4,530 nt of DNA. It comes from a virus (taxonomy: Duplodnaviria > Heunggongvirae > Uroviricota > Caudoviricetes). The stretch lies in the IMG/VR virus record IMGVR_UViG_3300023488_000045, positions 1 through 4,530 of that record, one strand, 5' to 3'. The position numbers were made by a program, and so were the translations under genes. The notes under the pieces are model-generated. The model ran no database searches and was not told where the DNA came from. It saw nothing but the letters and a program-made list of their open reading frames with translations. This document shows positions 118 through 4,513 of the stretch, one piece after another. The stretch's first letter is position 1; each line of letters opens with the position of its first letter.

Positions 118-609
118 TCACTCTCCTTTGATGCGAATGCCAGTGGCGCGTGGCACATTAACTTCCACGATGCGCACTGTTGGTTTGTACATCTCAATCG
201 CTGTCAGCCAGTCAGCTCCTGTCATGCGCTTTTCCGCATCGCCATTAGTCCACTGAACCGGTACGCCAATAGCCTTCATCGCGATTTCTATTTCCCCGGC
301 AATGGCGCTTTTTCCGCAACCAGTAAAACCAGAAACAACGACAAGAACTTCACCTTTGGCTGGTTTTATTTCCCGTGCTTCCAGTTCTGCAATGCGCTTT
401 TTGTCTGCTTCCCGTTCATCCAGTAGTGCCAGCACGGTTTCTGGTCCGGTCAGAAATTTGAAGGCGTTGAGCGCATCAATATCCACACCGTAATCTTTAA
501 GTTCCTGTTCACTTAACAAATCATCATCAACTGGCAACATTAACAGGCGTTCCATTGCTGGAGTTGCACGTTCTGCCGCATCTCGCAGTGCCTGATAGTC
601 AATTGTCAT
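118..609 (-). CDS. phage accessory protein: N-terminal coiled-coil region (KKRIAELEAREIK) plus C-terminal Walker-A/P-loop kinase-like fragment
   Basis: ORF track 118..618 (-). Preferred start is ATG 609..607, which overlaps the upstream TGA (608..606) as ATGA and has an AAGGA Shine-Dalgarno (622..618) 8 nt upstream; ATG 618 is the alternative. Protein contains a beta-strand-like EVLVVVS followed by GFTGCGKS (GxxxxGKS) and a helix-like AIAGEIEIAMKAIG, then a WTNGD loop. Only about 75 residues follow the P-loop, too few for a complete NTPase. Confidence 0.6.
   Translation of the reverse strand: MTIDYQALRDAAERATPAMERLLMLPVDDDLLSEQELKDYGVDIDALNAFKFLTGPETVLALLDEREADKKRIAELEAREIKPAKGEVLVVVSGFTGCGKSAIAGEIEIAMKAIGVPVQWTNGDAEKRMTGADWLTAIEMYKPTVRIVEVNVPRATGIRIKGE
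380..398 (-). repeat. 19-nt exact dispersed repeat tccagttctgcaatgcgct; second copy at 1542..1560
   Basis: Identical 19-mer in gene 118..609 and in Ea22-like paralog 1. Both encode KRIAELE on the minus strand within coiled-coil segments; flanks diverge. Confidence 0.85.
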
Positions 610-1250
610 TCTCGCCATCCTTCACAGTTGTAATCACTACAGCCTTCAAAATCATATGGGCTGTACTGCCAGGTTATTTTTCCGCAATGCGGACAATTCC
701 AACGCACCTTCCCGCTTCGCGACTTCTTTCTTCTGTTCTGCTCTTTCAACCAGTCAGGCATGACCAAACCTGCGCCCTGAACCATTGTTCTGCGGTTAAA
801 GTTATTGATATTGAACGTCCGGCGCTTTGCTGCATCAGCAATGGAAAATGACAACCAAACTATTCCTGGTTCGTTTTTGTTGACGACGCTAAAGATGGTC
901 GCTTTACTGAAGTCATCTGTTGGCAATCCACCGCGTTGAAGCCAGTAAACATCGTTGCCGTTCCAGCTACCTTTTTTGTAGGCCACATACTCAGTGCAAT
1001 CTGACTCAATCAGGCTTTCTGTAGGGATGTACTGGCAATCAACGTGCCACACAGCCATTGCATCCACACTATCGGCACAAACAGGCTGATCGATATCTCG
1101 CCCACAATTCCAGGCTTTTTGGGCTTCTTCCAGCGTGTAAATATGAGCGCGATCGATATCAGAACTGTAACCATTGCCGTTATGGCAATGGAATGAGGCG
1201 TTATTACCCACAGTTTCACGCAAGCACATCATGTAAAAGCGGTTATTCAC
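606..1250 (-). CDS. hypothetical Cys/Trp/His-rich protein with C-terminal zinc-ribbon-like motif (CPHC-x14-C-x4-C)
   Basis: ORF track 606..1250 (-), 214 aa. GTG start at 1250..1248 overlaps the TGA (1249..1247) of the upstream Ea22-like gene as GTGA. Strong AAGGAGG Shine-Dalgarno (1263..1257) with a 6-nt spacer. C-terminus NCPHCGKITWQYSPYDFEGCSDYNCEGW. Its stop overlaps the downstream start as ATGA. No family recognised from memory. Confidence 0.6.
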   Translation of the reverse strand: MNNRFYMMCLRETVGNNASFHCHNGNGYSSDIDRAHIYTLEEAQKAWNCGRDIDQPVCADSVDAMAVWHVDCQYIPTESLIESDCTEYVAYKKGSWNGNDVYWLQRGGLPTDDFSKATIFSVVNKNEPGIVWLSFSIADAAKRRTFNINNFNRRTMVQGAGLVMPDWLKEQNRRKKSRSGKVRWNCPHCGKITWQYSPYDFEGCSDYNCEGWRE

Positions 1251-1909
1251 TGGTTGCCTCCTTTGCGAAGCTGTTCAGCAATACTTACGCATATCTCTGC
1301 GCCTCTAATCAGCCCCGGAACGTTCTTGTTTGGCCCAACTTCACCATCAACAAAATCAATCATCGCGTTACGAGCCATATCCACCCCCTGCGCACGTACT
1401 TCAGCCAGGAGAGCGTCGGTAGCTGGGGTTTCCGTGAAGTTGTCCTCCCAACCGTAGTACTCCTGACGACAGAAGTTATTAAATTCCTTCTCCGACTGTT
1501 TAAGCGCCGCATTCTCCGCTGCCAGCGCCGTGCGTTCGCTCTCCAGTTCTGCAATGCGCTGTTTTGCGGCATCAAGTTCAATCGATAATTTTTCCAACTG
1601 CTCTTTATGCTTCTTGTATTCCTGATATGCGTGCCAGGACTGACCTTTGCGCACACTATCAGTAATATCAGTAATCTGTTCTGGTGTTAGCGTGGTCAGT
1701 GGCTGTGCTGGGAAAATCAGCACTTTCCCGGAATCCCAATCAAAACCAGCGTGAATTGACTGAACCTCAACTGAGGGTGTTGAACCAATGCTGCCAGGCG
1801 AATGAACAACGATCGTTACATCCATATCGCGACGATGGCTGTGGTTGTTGGACAAAATACGATTCAACAAAATACGATTCACCAACTCAGAAAATTTGGA
1901 GAATTTCAT
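1247..1909 (-). CDS. Ead/Ea22-like family protein (paralog 1)
   Basis: ORF track 1247..1921 (-); the track start is a TTG, and the first ATG is at 1909..1907 with a GAGG Shine-Dalgarno 6 nt upstream. Central coiled coil AKQRIAELESERTALAAENAALKQ and the motif ETPATDALLAEVRAQGV, which I recognise as typical of lambdoid Ead/Ea22-like proteins. C-terminus AEQLRKGGNQ is homologous to paralog 2. Confidence 0.7.
   Translation of the reverse strand: MKFSKFSELVNRILLNRILSNNHSHRRDMDVTIVVHSPGSIGSTPSVEVQSIHAGFDWDSGKVLIFPAQPLTTLTPEQITDITDSVRKGQSWHAYQEYKKHKEQLEKLSIELDAAKQRIAELESERTALAAENAALKQSEKEFNNFCRQEYYGWEDNFTETPATDALLAEVRAQGVDMARNAMIDFVDGEVGPNKNVPGLIRGAEICVSIAEQLRKGGNQ
1257..1263 (-). promoter_or_regulatory. 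Shine-Dalgarno AAGGAGG for the GTG-initiated gene 606..1250, embedded in the last codons of the upstream Ea22-like gene
   Basis: AAGGAGG on the minus strand, 6-nt spacer to GTG 1250. Confidence 0.6.
1259..1280 (-). repeat. conserved junction motif at the 3' end of both Ea22-like genes (second copy 2336..2357, 20/22 identical)
   Basis: ctcctttgcgaagctgttcagc versus ctcctttgcgaatctgttccgc. On the minus strand this encodes AEQ(L/I)RKG and contains the AAAGGAG Shine-Dalgarno serving the GTG start of the downstream gene in both cases (GTGA overlap at 1250 and 2328). Confidence 0.8.
1853..1882 (-). repeat. 15-bp tandem direct repeat x2 (caaaatacgattcaa / caaaatacgattcac) inside the Ea22-like paralog 1 N-terminus
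   Basis: Read directly: 1853..1867 and 1868..1882 are identical except for the last base. In frame (5 codons each), giving NRILL-NRILS in the protein. Confidence 0.8.
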
Positions 1910-1917
1910 GCGGAGCC

Positions 1918-2328
1918 TCAATATGCAAAATAGACCGTTGCCACGCCGTTATAGTGATCAAACGATACGGCGTTTACTTCATAACTGGCCGGGAGCTTCG
2001 AGCCAAGAACGTATCCGGGCCACGTTTTCCATGGAATTTCTCTATTCTCACTACCCCCATATACCGTACATCCAAGTGAACCTACAGCTTCATTAGAACG
2101 CGTGCCGCACGTTATGAATCCCAGATTTTGCTTACTGCTCTTAATGGTGATTGAGTGAACGCTGGCTGATGCATTAGCAGCACGCTGTGCCTGTTGGTTT
2201 GCGATATTCGCAGAGTTCGCAGCAGCTACAGCAGCCGTAGTCGCGGCGGTAGAGGCTACAATAGCTGCTGAAGCATGCACTTGTTGGATATTCACCAACA
2301 ATGCCGCGACAAAAATCATCTTCTTCAC
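1918..2328 (-). CDS. predicted secreted/periplasmic protein with Sec-type signal peptide, Ala/Thr-rich linker and two-Cys C-terminal domain; function unknown
   Basis: ORF track 1918..2328 (-), 136 aa. GTG start 2328..2326 overlaps the upstream TGA (2327..2325) as GTGA; AGGAG Shine-Dalgarno 7 nt upstream; alternative ATG at 2319. N-terminus [22 protein letters not shown] has a basic n-region, hydrophobic core and AXA-like cleavage site (VHA). Mature part is a low-complexity Ala/Thr/Asn stretch followed by a roughly 80-aa domain with two Cys, ending YFAY. Confidence 0.6.
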   Translation of the reverse strand: MKKMIFVAALLVNIQQVHASAAIVASTAATTAAVAAANSANIANQQAQRAANASASVHSITIKSSKQNLGFITCGTRSNEAVGSLGCTVYGGSENREIPWKTWPGYVLGSKLPASYEVNAVSFDHYNGVATVYFAY

Positions 2329-2855
2329 TTGTCAGCTCCTTTGCGAATCTGTTCCGCCCATTCTTCAAGGGATTTCTCCGCATATTCACCGGACAGGCCA
2401 TCAATCGGGTGCGGTTCATTAGCTAACTCTTCTTTCGCTGACAGAATCATGCGTGTAACGTCGAAAACTTCACGTAAAGACTTATTGATAAATCCGTGAT
2501 TGAACGCAGCAGCAAGACGGCTGGCGGTATAGTTAATCCCCTCGTTGCGTGCTTCCGCACGAATTTCAGCAAGGAAAGCATCGGTGGCGGGAGTTTCGCT
2601 GTGGTGCAGGGCATCGTTGATAATCATTGCAGCAACACCAGCCTGCCCTGCATCCGTGACCGACACATGCTCAAGAGTTACGACCATTGCGTGTTTCAGC
2701 CCAGCATTCTCCGCCGCCAGCGCCGCGCACTTGGCCTCCGCTTCAGCAAATTTACGCACCAGATATTCAGCGTTTGTTTCGTTAACCTTTAAATCTCGTG
2801 GGATGCATTTACCTTTCAGAAATCCATCCATCTCAATTAGTGACATTTGTTTCAT
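2325..2855 (-). CDS. Ead/Ea22-like family protein (paralog 2)
   Basis: ORF track 2325..2873 (-), which begins at a GTG. Preferred start is ATG 2855..2853, overlapping the TGA (2854..2852) of the upstream small ORF as ATGA. Contains [11 protein letters not shown] and [16 protein letters not shown], and a C-terminal [10 protein letters not shown]; homologous to paralog 1 at protein and nucleotide level. Confidence 0.7.
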
Positions 2856-3016
2856 TTCTTCCCACTCCGCCACATCGCATTCAGATATTTGTTGTCATTA
2901 ACAGAACCGAAACTCTTTCTCTTAAGCAATTCCTCTCTCGATGGCATTGGCTTTACGCGTTGGCGAATAATCATTTCTGCCGGAAGAATGCCGGGATTGT
3001 ATGCAAGTCCTCTCAT
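2852..3016 (-). CDS. small basic hypothetical protein (54 aa)
   Basis: In-frame part of track ORF 2852..3166 (which begins at a TTG at 3166 and overlaps the 97-aa gene out of frame). ATG 3016..3014 is preceded by TGAGGAA with a 6-nt spacer, and that Shine-Dalgarno overlaps the TGA of the 97-aa gene. Its own stop overlaps the ATG of Ea22-like paralog 2 as ATGA. Product [54 protein letters not shown]. Alternative ATGs at 3049 and 3034 lack a Shine-Dalgarno. Confidence 0.35.
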
Positions 3017-3026
3017 GGTAAATTCC

Positions 3027-3320
3027 TCAGTCATTACTGATAGCGCCATAGCGTGAGCGGTAATTACGCAGGCGCGGGTCAATTTCAGGGAAGTGGGTAT
3101 ATGCGGCTTTGCGGAATGGTCGGATTGATGTCTGGTAAATTCGCTCGCGTTCTTCTTTCTCTGCAAGCCATATACAGTGGCGAAATTCCTTTTCCTCTTT
3201 CGTTTCCTGCGGTAGAGACATTATTCGATCGTAGTTTTTTTTGAATTTATCCAGCACCTCCGATACGGAATTGCCGGAACAGCGGCGCGCGTCATCCGCA
3301 CCATACAGAGGCGCTGGCAT
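3027..3320 (-). CDS. small phage protein (97 aa); tentatively Abc2-like anti-RecBCD protein on position and size only
   Basis: ORF track 3027..3320 (-). ATG 3320..3318 with a TAAGGA Shine-Dalgarno 7 nt upstream. Sits downstream of erf/ssb where P22-like phages carry abc1/abc2, and P22 Abc2 is about 97 aa as I remember it. I cannot verify sequence identity, so the product call is low confidence. Confidence 0.45.
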
Positions 3321-3343
3321 AATTAAATCCTTATTTTTCTAAA

Positions 3344-3727
3344 TCAGAATGGGATGGAATCGTCGTATACAGGAGTGTTCTGCTGGTTACTACTTTGCTG
3401 CTGCGGGCCATTTCCTGAAGCTGCAAATCCAATCTTTGCATTCAGTAATTCAAGAGTGATTGATTGACCATTTTGCCCCTGATAAACATCAACCCTGATG
3501 TTTTCTCCGGTAATTTCCACAATGCCACCTTCAACAAGAACACTACGGTAGTAATCCGCTTGCGCTCCCGGCTTGGCAAATACAACGGCGCTGTAGTTTG
3601 TCCATTCTTTCTTTTTTGTCTGGCGATCGTAATACTGAACGCCAGCACGGATGTTGAATCCGATATTTTCCACGGCCTGAAACTCTCTTGCGGGCTTGTT
3701 TAGTCTTACAGTAATCGAATGTGCCAT
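3344..3727 (-). CDS. ssb: single-stranded DNA-binding protein (phage SSB-like, short form)
   Basis: ORF track 3344..3727 (-), 127 aa. ATG 3727..3725 overlaps the erf TAA (3729..3727) as TAATG; AAGGAG Shine-Dalgarno lies inside the erf 3' end. OB-fold-like core (YSAVVFAKPGAQADYYRSVLVEGGIVEITGENIRVDVYQGQNGQSITLEL), Gly/Gln-rich linker, and acidic-aromatic tip YDDSIPF resembling the canonical SSB DDDIPF tail. Confidence 0.75.
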   Translation of the reverse strand: MAHSITVRLNKPAREFQAVENIGFNIRAGVQYYDRQTKKKEWTNYSAVVFAKPGAQADYYRSVLVEGGIVEITGENIRVDVYQGQNGQSITLELLNAKIGFAASGNGPQQQSSNQQNTPVYDDSIPF

Positions 3728-4332
3728 TAAGCAGCAGCTCCTTCTAATTCGTCTCGTCTGATGTTGTAAACGTCCTGCGCTTTGTGCTGCTCAGGTGTGC
3801 CTTCGAGCATCTTCCACGCTTTGGCGAACGCCTGTTTAAGCTCTTCTACGGTGTTTTTCTGCATTGCTGCGTCAGTGAATGCTTTTAGAACCTGTTCAGG
3901 TGTAGGTGATGGTTTTGATTGCTTTGCTGCTGCGTTCTGCTGATGTTTATGCTCGTCTGTATCTGCATCTTTCGCATCATCAATGCCGAACAAACCATTG
4001 AGGCAATACTTGCGTGCATAAGAGCTTGTAGCTCCCGTAACTTGTGCAGAATCCATTCCTTTCTTGCTTTCTTCCTCTCGTGCAAGAGCGGTTGCCGTAT
4101 GGCTGTTTTCGCCATCGGTAATAGTTGCCGTGGCTTTCACGTAATACCGATCACCAATCAACACAACTTCATCGCTGATTGATAAAAACAGACCATTCAG
4201 TAACGGCTTAACGCCTTCAAGAATATCTTCGCAGCTTCTGTATTTATATTTACCGAATGAGTTGTACTGATTCTTTGGCGCGTTCAGATTCTCCTGAATA
4301 GCTGCCAGTCTTGCGTAAAATTCTTTGCTCAT
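3727..4332 (-). CDS. erf: Erf-family single-strand annealing protein (essential recombination function)
   Basis: ORF track 3727..4362 (-), whose first codon is a TTG. Preferred start is ATG 4332..4330 (MSKEFYARLAAIQENLNAPKNQYNSFGKYKYRSCEDILEGVKPLL...), which I recognise as closely resembling the phage P22 Erf N-terminal domain. About 201 aa. Followed by a translationally coupled ssb. Confidence 0.85.
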   Translation of the reverse strand: MSKEFYARLAAIQENLNAPKNQYNSFGKYKYRSCEDILEGVKPLLNGLFLSISDEVVLIGDRYYVKATATITDGENSHTATALAREEESKKGMDSAQVTGATSSYARKYCLNGLFGIDDAKDADTDEHKHQQNAAAKQSKPSPTPEQVLKAFTDAAMQKNTVEELKQAFAKAWKMLEGTPEQHKAQDVYNIRRDELEGAAA

Positions 4333-4342
4333 ATGATTGTTC

Positions 4343-4513
4343 TCAGAATGGACATGGACCAAGGAAATAACGCTGATTTAATACTTCGGTCTTTGCCGCA
4401 TTTAAAAAGACGCGAACACCTTCACGATCGCCCTTCTGGCGATACATTAACGCCTGCTGCGTGTACATGCGCCTCTGTAACTTGCTCTCCTTCACTGTGG
4501 TTGCAAGTGACAT
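4343..4513 (-). CDS. small protein (56 aa) immediately upstream of erf, at the Arf/Kil position of P22-like phages
   Basis: Not in the ORF track (under 60 aa). ATG 4513..4511 preceded by a perfect AAGGAG (4525..4520) with a 6-nt spacer. Hand translation: MSLATTVKESKLQRRMYTQQALMYRQKGDREGVRVFLNAAKTEVLNQRYFLGPCPF, stop TGA at 4345..4343, 10 nt before the erf ATG. Identity with Arf or Kil not verified. Confidence 0.45.
   Translation of the reverse strand: MSLATTVKESKLQRRMYTQQALMYRQKGDREGVRVFLNAAKTEVLNQRYFLGPCPF

What the first reader, a model, noticed from the sequence alone, without database searches (positions are those of the whole stretch)
2852..3320. Two small coupled ORFs directly downstream of erf-ssb: candidate anti-RecBCD / anti-defence position
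In P22 the slot immediately after erf holds abc1/abc2, which are RecBCD modulators. Here, after erf and ssb, there is a 97-aa ORF with a strong SD and a 54-aa highly basic ORF whose SD overlaps the 97-aa stop and whose own stop overlaps the next gene's ATG. The size and position of the 97-aa ORF fit Abc2 but I cannot confirm sequence identity. The 54-aa ORF is absent from the track as a separate gene and may be an unannotated small protein.
Basis: partly seen in the sequence, partly recalled or inferred. Interest (0 to 1): 0.45.

Follow-up and report, generated by a model that had tools for sequence, protein, structure and literature searches.

The report
Phage abc2 gene plus DUF2737 gene
The two small genes are the well-known phage anti-RecBCD gene abc2 and its usual neighbour, a routinely annotated 54-residue protein of unknown function (DUF2737, P22 orf56), so the region is an ordinary P22/HK97-type recombination module.

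Summary
Two minus-strand ORFs lie at 3027-3320 (97 aa) and 2852-3016 (54 aa, net charge +8). They are joined by a 10-nt spacer whose Shine-Dalgarno sequence overlaps the first stop codon. The second ORF ends in an ATGA overlap with the next gene.

The 97-aa protein is Abc2: full-length Pfam PF11043 at 206 bits, 91% identical to P22 Abc2, matching PDB 8B1T, with Pro68 conserved. The 54-aa protein is not new. It belongs to Pfam DUF2737 (100 bits) and is 72% identical to P22 orf56 and 98% to HK446 gp28. RefSeq annotates it in HK97, HK446 and E. coli prophages.

It is a real gene: dN/dS against P22 is 0.19 in its frame and above 1 in the other two frames. All 80 Abc2-centred loci sampled carry DUF2737 downstream. 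The reverse does not hold, because DUF2737 also follows RecT modules and occurs in virulent Guernseyvirinae. Its variants assort independently of Abc2 variants.

No function, fold match or literature exists for DUF2737. The next gene is an EaE-family relative of Oad2, a recently described anti-OLD protein, so calling this an anti-defence neighbourhood is reasonable. Verdict: already known, low interest.

The parts
4343..4513 (-). 56-aa small protein in the arf/gp33 slot just upstream of erf (context, not part of the finding)
   Evidence: phrog_1723 at 117 bits. 58% identical to the HK97p33 small 'recombinase'. No similarity to HK446 gp33.
3727..4332 (-). erf, a single-strand annealing protein. 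The probable start is the ATG at 4332; the ORF list extends it to the TTG at 4362.
   Evidence: PF04404 ERF at 151 bits. At 606 nt it has the same length as HK97 erf.
3344..3727 (-). SSB-like protein of the HK97 gp40 type (127 aa). It occupies the slot that abc1 holds in P22.
   Evidence: phrog_44 'single strand DNA binding protein' at 96 bits. 94% identical to HK97 gp40, with a C-terminal YDDSIPF tail. gp40 is called SSB-1b in PMC12315714. No similarity to P22 Abc1.
3027..3320 (-). abc2, anti-RecBCD protein 2 (97 aa). SD TAAGGA lies at 3333-3328.
   Evidence: PF11043 over 1-97 of 97 positions at 206 bits. phrog_656. 91% identical to P22 Abc2. Matches PDB 8B1T/8B1U at E 4e-56. Pro68 is conserved.
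3017..3029 (-). Coupling junction: the abc2 TGA (3029-3027), the SD GAGGA (3028-3024), and the 10-nt intergenic spacer (3026-3017) before the ATG at 3016
   Evidence: Sequence read. The string TGAGGAATTTACCATG is identical in 72 of 83 readable junctions, with one or two substitutions in the rest. This includes Abc2 variants only 52-72% identical.
2852..3016 (-). DUF2737 family protein (54 aa, net charge +8), equivalent to P22 orf56, HK97 gp38 and HK446 gp28
   Evidence: PF10930 over 1-52 of 53 positions at 100 bits. phrog_1117. 72% to P22 orf56 and 98% to HK446 gp28. dN/dS 0.19. Carries the family-invariant R33, S35, F36 and N42.
2325..2855 (-). EaE/Ea22-like protein (176 aa from the ATG at 2855), overlapping the DUF2737 stop as ATGA. 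It is a relative of the HK446 anti-OLD protein Oad2.
   Evidence: 38% identical to P22 EaE. phrog_614. 49% identical over 139 aa to HK446 gp27, which is named Oad2 in bioRxiv 10.64898/2026.07.10.737580.

Best explanation
This is the distal end of a P22/HK97-type recombination module in the early-left (PL) operon of a lambdoid enterobacterial phage or prophage. The gene order is small protein - erf - ssb-like - abc2 - DUF2737 - EaE-like.

The 97-aa protein is Abc2. By homology to P22 Abc2, it binds the Chi-recognition (inactivated helicase) domains of the RecC subunit of host RecBCD. It docks the host prolyl isomerase PpiB through Pro68. It re-programmes RecBCD rather than blocking it, so that DNA ends are processed for the phage's own Erf/SSB annealing pathway instead of Chi-dependent RecA loading or phage DNA degradation.

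The 54-aa protein is a real, conserved, basic micro-protein of the DUF2737 family. It is probably translated by coupling to abc2, because its SD lies over the abc2 stop codon.

Its function is unknown. My inference is that it is an independent host-directed accessory protein, not a subunit of Abc2. I propose that it acts through its conserved C-terminal motif [11 protein letters not shown](N/K)SFxSVNxNK(Y/H)L, most likely by binding a conserved Enterobacterales protein or nucleic acid during early infection. The identities are shown by the data. The Abc2 mechanism is transferred from P22 by 91% identity. The DUF2737 mechanism is inference only.
For: Identity of Abc2:
- Pfam, PHROG, P22 and PDB matches.
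- Only 4 substitutions fall within residues 1-66, the part modelled on RecC, and Pro68 is kept (mechanism from PMC9836394).

Identity of DUF2737:
-.
- The same gene order is annotated in P22 (abc2-orf56-eaE), HK97, HK446 and an E. coli prophage.

DUF2737 is a real gene:
- dN/dS is 0.19 in frame against 1.25 and 1.13 out of frame.
- The family has 662 clusters at 90% identity and 107 representatives at 50% identity.

Translational coupling:
- The junction is nearly invariant.
- No internal promoter or terminator was found.

Independence from Abc2:
- In 161 DUF2737 loci the immediate upstream gene is abc2 in 89, another gene in 52 and none in 20.
- It follows RecT+Gp157 modules and a RecT+exonuclease module.
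- It occurs in virulent Guernseyvirinae among small early genes.
- A DUF5405 gene is inserted exactly between abc2 and DUF2737 in HK446 and other phages.
- Divergence of Abc2 and DUF2737 is uncorrelated in 60 unique pairs (r = -0.03).
- Abc2 expressed without DUF2737 forms a stable RecBCD-Abc2-PpiB complex (PMC9836394).
Against: No experiment or structure bears on DUF2737. The AlphaFold2 models are only moderately confident (pLDDT 62.7 and 71.2, pTM 0.22 and 0.33). There are no sequence or fold matches to solved or predicted structures. In the Abc2-centred sample every locus (80 of 80) has DUF2737 downstream. In the phage collection the counts are almost equal: 224 records with Abc2 against 223 with a near-full-length DUF2737. 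A functional dependence of Abc2 on DUF2737 in vivo is therefore not excluded. Translation from the ATG at 3016 and the coupling itself are inferred from sequence only.
Confidence: 0.9

Rival explanations
1. The two ORFs form a two-component anti-RecBCD unit. DUF2737 would be an obligate cofactor of Abc2, taking the place of Abc1 in phages that carry an SSB gene in the abc1 slot.
For: All 80 Abc2-centred loci have DUF2737 downstream. Record counts in the phage collection are nearly equal. The coupling junction is conserved.
Against: P22 has both abc1 and orf56, so one does not replace the other. There is no similarity to Abc1. DUF2737 occurs without abc2 behind RecT modules and in virulent phages. 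A gene can be inserted between the two. Variants assort independently. Abc2 alone binds RecBCD (PMC9836394). Constant adjacency can be kept simply by homologous exchange at the conserved junction.
Confidence: 0.12
2. DUF2737 works with the downstream EaE/Oad2-like gene, for example as a partner or regulator of an anti-defence protein, rather than with the recombination module.
For: An EaE-like gene follows DUF2737 in 115 of 158 loci. In the window they overlap as ATGA. HK446 gp27, an EaE relative directly downstream of its DUF2737 gene, inhibits P2 OLD.
Against: According to the authors, Oad2 alone was sufficient to inhibit OLD. In other loci DUF2737 is followed by unrelated genes, which by my reading of their sequences look like PAPS-reductase-like, methyltransferase-like, HNH and ASCH-like proteins. 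The virulent phages with DUF2737 have no EaE gene next to it.
Confidence: 0.08
3. The 54-aa ORF is a chance ORF. Alternatively, the real gene is the longer 104-aa ORF from the TTG at 3166 (or from the in-frame ATGs at 3049 or 3034), overlapping abc2.
For: the ORF listing reports the 104-aa form. Some automated gene calls in the databases start upstream, giving 59-73-aa forms.
Against: The Pfam profile starts exactly at the Met encoded at 3016, which is residue 51 of the long form. P22 orf56 and distant family members start at the equivalent Met. The SD is placed for 3016. The extension is merely the abc2 3' end read in another frame. Purifying selection acts in the 54-aa frame.
Confidence: 0.02

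Closest known systems
Salmonella phage P22 Abc2 (anti-RecBCD protein 2; Pfam PF11043; PDB 8B1T/8B1U)
   Same: Same length (97 aa) and 91% identity, with Pro68 present. It holds the same operon position, downstream of erf and directly upstream of the orf56 homologue.
   Different: Nine substitutions, mostly in the C-terminal third. The gene between erf and abc2 is an SSB-like gene (HK97 gp40 type) instead of abc1.
P22 orf56 / HK97 gp38 / HK446 gp28 (Pfam DUF2737, PF10930; phrog_1117)
   Same: 72%, about 96% and 98% identity respectively (locus L040, which is the HK97 genome). Same size, same 10-nt junction after abc2, and an EaE-like gene downstream.
   Different: The window protein has K34 where most members have N (RKSF instead of RNSF). 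No member has a known function.
HK97 / HK022 / HK446-type recombination module (erf - gp40 SSB-1b - abc2)
   Same: Gene order and more than 94% protein identity for the ssb-like gene and abc2.
   Different: The genes to the left (several EaE/Ea22-like paralogues and others) are a different mosaic. No complete E. coli genome covers 80% of the window.
HK446 Oad2 (gp27), an anti-OLD protein of the EaE family
   Same: The window gene at 2325-2855 sits in the same position, overlapping the DUF2737 stop. It shares the N-terminal ~38 residues and the [11 protein letters not shown] motif.
   Different: Only 49% identity over 139 aa, with a different C-terminal part. The authors report that a 54%-identical HK75 homologue does not inhibit OLD, so activity cannot be assumed.
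Lambda Gam / T7 gp5.9 (RecBCD inhibitors)
   Same: They serve the same biological purpose, protecting phage DNA ends from RecBCD, and lie in the same early-operon neighbourhood.
   Different: They are unrelated in sequence and mechanism. They block the DNA-binding site, whereas Abc2 binds RecC and leaves helicase activity largely intact (PMC9836394).

Membership tests
Abc2 (Pfam PF11043, Anti-RecBCD_p2) | Full-length match to the family profile above the curated cut-off | tested here: met
   206 bits against a cut-off of 25, covering residues 1-97 of 97 profile positions. phrog_656 at 181 bits.
Abc2 (Pfam PF11043, Anti-RecBCD_p2) | Close similarity to the experimentally characterised P22 protein with a solved RecBCD complex | tested here: met
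   91% identity without gaps. Matches PDB 8B1T chain A at E 3.9e-56.
Abc2 (Pfam PF11043, Anti-RecBCD_p2) | Pro68, the PpiB docking residue | tested here: met
   IRPFRK at residues 66-71 is identical to P22. The role of P68 comes from PMC9836394.
Abc2 (Pfam PF11043, Anti-RecBCD_p2) | Position in the early-left operon, downstream of a single-strand annealing protein | tested here: met
   The order erf (PF04404) - ssb-like - abc2 on one strand matches HK97, HK446 and P22.
Abc2 (Pfam PF11043, Anti-RecBCD_p2) | Binds RecC and modulates RecBCD activity | not testable with these tools
   Needs biochemistry or genetics. Inferred from 91% identity.
DUF2737 (Pfam PF10930) | Match to the family profile above the curated cut-off, starting at the proposed Met | tested here: met
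   100.4 bits against a cut-off of 25, covering residues 1-52 of 53 profile positions. phrog_1117 at 130 bits.
DUF2737 (Pfam PF10930) | Conserved core motif with invariant R33, S35, F36 and N42 | tested here: met
   All four residues are present in the window protein. Alignments A2 and A4 of members down to about 32% identity.
DUF2737 (Pfam PF10930) | Protein-coding constraint in this reading frame | tested here: met
   dN/dS 0.19 against P22 in frame, and 1.25 and 1.13 in the shifted frames.
P22 Abc1 (anti-RecBCD protein 1) | Sequence similarity to P22 Abc1, tested for both the 54-aa and the 127-aa protein | tested here: not met
   No BLASTP alignment at E <= 100 for either protein.
Oad2 / EaE family (for the adjacent gene 2325-2855) | Sequence similarity to HK446 gp27 and P22 EaE | tested here: met
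   49% over 139 aa to gp27. 38% over 144 aa to P22 EaE.
Oad2 / EaE family (for the adjacent gene 2325-2855) | Inhibition of P2 OLD | not testable with these tools
   The authors report that a 54%-identical homologue is inactive, so activity cannot be inferred.

The most novel reading that the evidence does not exclude
DUF2737 could be an uncharacterised host-targeting micro-protein that marks the distal end of recombination modules in Enterobacterales phages, whatever their type (Erf/Abc2, Sak4, RecT/Gp157 or RecT/Exo). It would act on a DNA-repair or defence factor, for example by countering a system that senses RecBCD manipulation. In that case the abc2-DUF2737-EaE stretch would be a trigger-plus-countermeasure cassette.
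Probability: 0.2. Interest if true: 0.5.

Novelty: already known. Interest (0 to 1): 0.12.

Why it matters
As found, it matters little. It confirms that this window carries a standard Erf-SSB-Abc2 recombination module, and that the small ORF after abc2 is a gene family already in Pfam, PHROGs and RefSeq.

The residual value is that DUF2737 has no known function despite being widespread. It is under purifying selection and always accompanies Abc2 in the samples examined. It sits between a RecBCD modulator and a gene family now known to include an anti-OLD protein. It is therefore a cheap and reasonable candidate for a knockout or pull-down experiment in P22 or HK97.

Tried and rejected
- **Structure of DUF2737.** Two AlphaFold2 runs gave only three short helices at pLDDT 62.7 and 71.2. 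Foldseek against the PDB and BFVD gave nothing below E = 0.3. Sequence and profile searches of PDB chains gave nothing at E <= 10.
- **Literature.** 'DUF2737' appears in one paper only, as an annotation label. Searches for orf56/P22/abc2 and for HK97 gp38 found no functional study.
- **NCBIfam.** No model matches either protein.
- **Alignment-based locus search.** The full diverse alignment A2 had no stretch conserved enough to search with, so a subset (A3) was used.
- **Species-representative genome scan.** It returned only 6 loci: Escherichia, Shimwellia and one doubtful actinobacterial hit. It added little.
- **Abc1 identity.** Rejected for both the 127-aa and the 54-aa proteins.
- **The 104-aa alternative ORF.** Rejected.
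- **HK446 gp33 (OLD trigger) identity.** Rejected for the 56-aa ORF upstream of erf.
- **Longer 'fusion' proteins.** The database entries containing DUF2737 (P0122-P0124) read as deletion or gene-calling artefacts. They join upstream genes to the out-of-frame abc2 3' end, and are not domain fusions.

Full report
**Observation.** All long ORFs of the window are on the minus strand.
- The finding's coordinates, 2852-3320, hold exactly two of them.
- The 97-aa ORF runs 3320->3027. TAAGGA lies 7 nt before its ATG.
- The 54-aa ORF runs 3016->2852. Its GAGGA (3028-3024) lies over the TGA of the first ORF (3029-3027), and the intergenic spacer is 10 nt.
- The 54-aa ORF ends in ATGA, which overlaps the start of the next gene at 2855.
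- The 54-aa protein has 12 Lys/Arg and 4 Asp/Glu.
- No promoter-like site and no minus-strand terminator-like site lies in 2200-3800.

**The 97-aa ORF is Abc2.**
- It matches Pfam PF11043 (Anti-RecBCD_p2) end to end at 206 bits, against a cut-off of 25.
- It matches phrog_656 'abc2 anti-RecBCD'.
- It is 91% identical, without gaps, to P22 Abc2 taken from the P22 genome record.
- It matches the Abc2 chain of PDB 8B1T/8B1U at E 4e-56.
- Only four substitutions fall in residues 1-66, the part modelled on RecC. Pro68, which the structural paper places in the PpiB active site, is conserved (PMC9836394).
- That paper and PMC12315714 describe the mechanism I transfer by homology. [quoted passage not shown] It leaves unwinding largely intact and alters the late, Chi-dependent steps, so that the phage annealing protein can use the processed ends.

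**Neighbouring genes.**
- The upstream genes are erf (PF04404) and a 127-aa SSB-like protein.
- The SSB-like protein matches phrog_44. It is 94% identical to HK97 gp40 and has an SSB-type YDDSIPF tail. PMC12315714 calls gp40 'SSB-1b'.
- This protein is not Abc1.

**The 54-aa ORF is a known gene family.**
- It matches Pfam DUF2737 (PF10930) at 100 bits from its first residue, and phrog_1117.
- It is 72% identical to P22 orf56 and 98% to HK446 gp28.
- In P22 (abc2-orf56-eaE), HK97, HK446 and an E. coli prophage annotated by PGAP, the homologue is annotated in exactly this position.
- Protein databases hold 662 clusters at 90% identity and 107 representatives at 50% identity. Every name given by a source is 'DUF2737 family protein'.
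- It is a real coding sequence. Against P22, dN/dS is 0.19 in this frame and 1.25 and 1.13 in the two shifted frames.
- The longer 104-aa ORF listed by the ORF finder is not supported. The profile, P22 orf56 and distant members all begin at the Met encoded at 3016.

**Linkage between DUF2737 and abc2.**
- In 84 loci close to the window's DUF2737, abc2 lies 10 nt upstream in 71. It lies upstream beyond a ~290-nt insert in 7, and is absent in 6.
- The insert is a DUF5405 gene, the same as HK446 gp29.
- The abc2-less loci carry a RecT - Sipho_Gp157 - small helix-turn-helix-like protein module instead.
- With a wider sample of 161 loci, the immediate upstream gene is abc2 in 89, something else in 52 and nothing within 150 nt in 20.
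- Cronobacter phage ENT47670 has DUF2737 after RecT and an exonuclease, and the record leaves it unannotated.
- The virulent Guernseyvirinae phages phiEap-2 and Otaku carry it among small early genes, with no recombination module next to it.
- Conversely, all 80 loci found with the window's Abc2 have DUF2737 downstream.
- The phage collection holds 224 Abc2 records and 223 with a near-full-length DUF2737.
- The junction TGAGGAATTTACCATG is almost invariant, even where Abc2 is only 52-72% identical.
- The divergence of the two proteins is nevertheless uncorrelated (r = -0.03 over 60 unique pairs).
- My reading is that the two genes are exchanged independently by recombination at or near a conserved junction. 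That process preserves gene order without requiring a physical partnership.
- Abc2 expressed alone with RecBCD forms a stable complex, which argues in the same direction.
- A functional dependence in vivo is not excluded.

**What DUF2737 does.**
- Nothing is known about its function.
- The conserved part is the C-terminal half, [11 protein letters not shown](N/K)SFxSVNxNK(Y/H)L, with R33, S35, F36 and N42 invariant. The N-terminal half varies.
- AlphaFold2 gives three short helices at modest confidence.
- Neither fold nor sequence searches find a relative with a structure.
- The literature library has no functional study.
- I therefore commit only to a weak inference. It is a small, basic, host-directed accessory protein that acts through its conserved motif, is made together with Abc2 by translational coupling, and is not a subunit of Abc2.

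**The neighbourhood.**
- A 2026 preprint shows that HK446 gp27, the EaE-related gene directly downstream of that phage's DUF2737 gene, inhibits the P2 OLD defence protein. The authors name it Oad2 and call the region a hotspot of anti-defence genes.
- The window's gene at 2325-2855 is a 49%-identical relative with a different C-terminal part.
- Because a 54%-identical homologue was reported inactive, no activity can be assumed here.
- An EaE-like gene follows DUF2737 in 115 of 158 loci.
It is not evidence about the 54-aa protein itself.

**Verdict.**
- The Abc2 interpretation is confirmed.
- The suggestion of a new or unannotated small protein is not confirmed.
- The arrangement is the textbook P22/HK97/HK022 layout and is already known.
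- The only open question is the function of DUF2737, which is a reasonable but modest experimental target.

Noticed in passing
window 2325-2855 (-), 1247-1921 (-), 118-618 (-): There are three EaE/Ea22-like paralogues in a row. The first two share an (E)TPATDA(F/L)LAE(I/V)RA motif and the third matches Pfam Ead_Ea22. The first is 49% identical to HK446 Oad2, a recently described inhibitor of the P2 OLD defence protein. Whether any of the three has anti-defence activity is unknown.
   Followed up: partly
window 4343-4513 (-): A 56-aa ORF ends 10 nt before the erf ATG, in the slot held by arf in P22 and gp33 in HK446. It matches phrog_1723 (labelled 'recombinase') and is 58% identical to HK97p33. 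It is unrelated to HK446 gp33, the reported OLD trigger.
   Followed up: partly
window 3344-3727 (-): The SSB-like protein has no Pfam hit. [quoted passage not shown]
   Followed up: partly
window 1918-2328 (-): A 136-aa protein has an N-terminus that looks like a signal peptide ([21 protein letters not shown]...). It matches phrog_8805 of unknown function and has no Pfam hit. It may be a secreted or envelope moron product.
   Followed up: no
window 606-1250 (-): A 214-aa protein (phrog_2457, unknown function) has a C-terminal Cys-rich stretch, CPHCGKITWQYSPYDFEGCSDYNCEGW, suggestive of a zinc ribbon.
   Followed up: no
whole window: No complete E. coli genome and only two phage records cover most of the region. 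The best whole-window coverage in E. coli is 65%. The particular combination of left-arm accessory genes is an uncommon mosaic, although each block is common.
   Followed up: no
L088 2272-2562 (HK446 gp29); L079, L080, L082 between abc2 and DUF2737: A 93-96-aa DUF5405 gene is inserted exactly at the abc2/DUF2737 junction in some phages. It reuses the same SD-over-stop junction and overlaps the DUF2737 start as ATGA. RefSeq labels it 'replication initiation protein' in HK446.
   Followed up: partly
L085 3001-3150 (Cronobacter phage ENT47670, HQ201308.1): The DUF2737 homologue downstream of RecT and the exonuclease has no CDS annotated in the GenBank record. Omission of this small gene does happen in some records.
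   Followed up: no
phage record OR850339.1 (hit H102): A 1698-bp record labelled 'Staphylococcus phage SA 1298 Kay' encodes a 90%-identical Abc2. It is probably a mislabelled or contaminant enterobacterial fragment.
   Followed up: no
proteins P0122, P0123, P0124: These database 'fusion' proteins join Erf or exonuclease N-termini to DUF2737 through the out-of-frame 3' end of abc2 ([28 protein letters not shown]). This indicates deletion derivatives of the module in some prophages.
   Followed up: no
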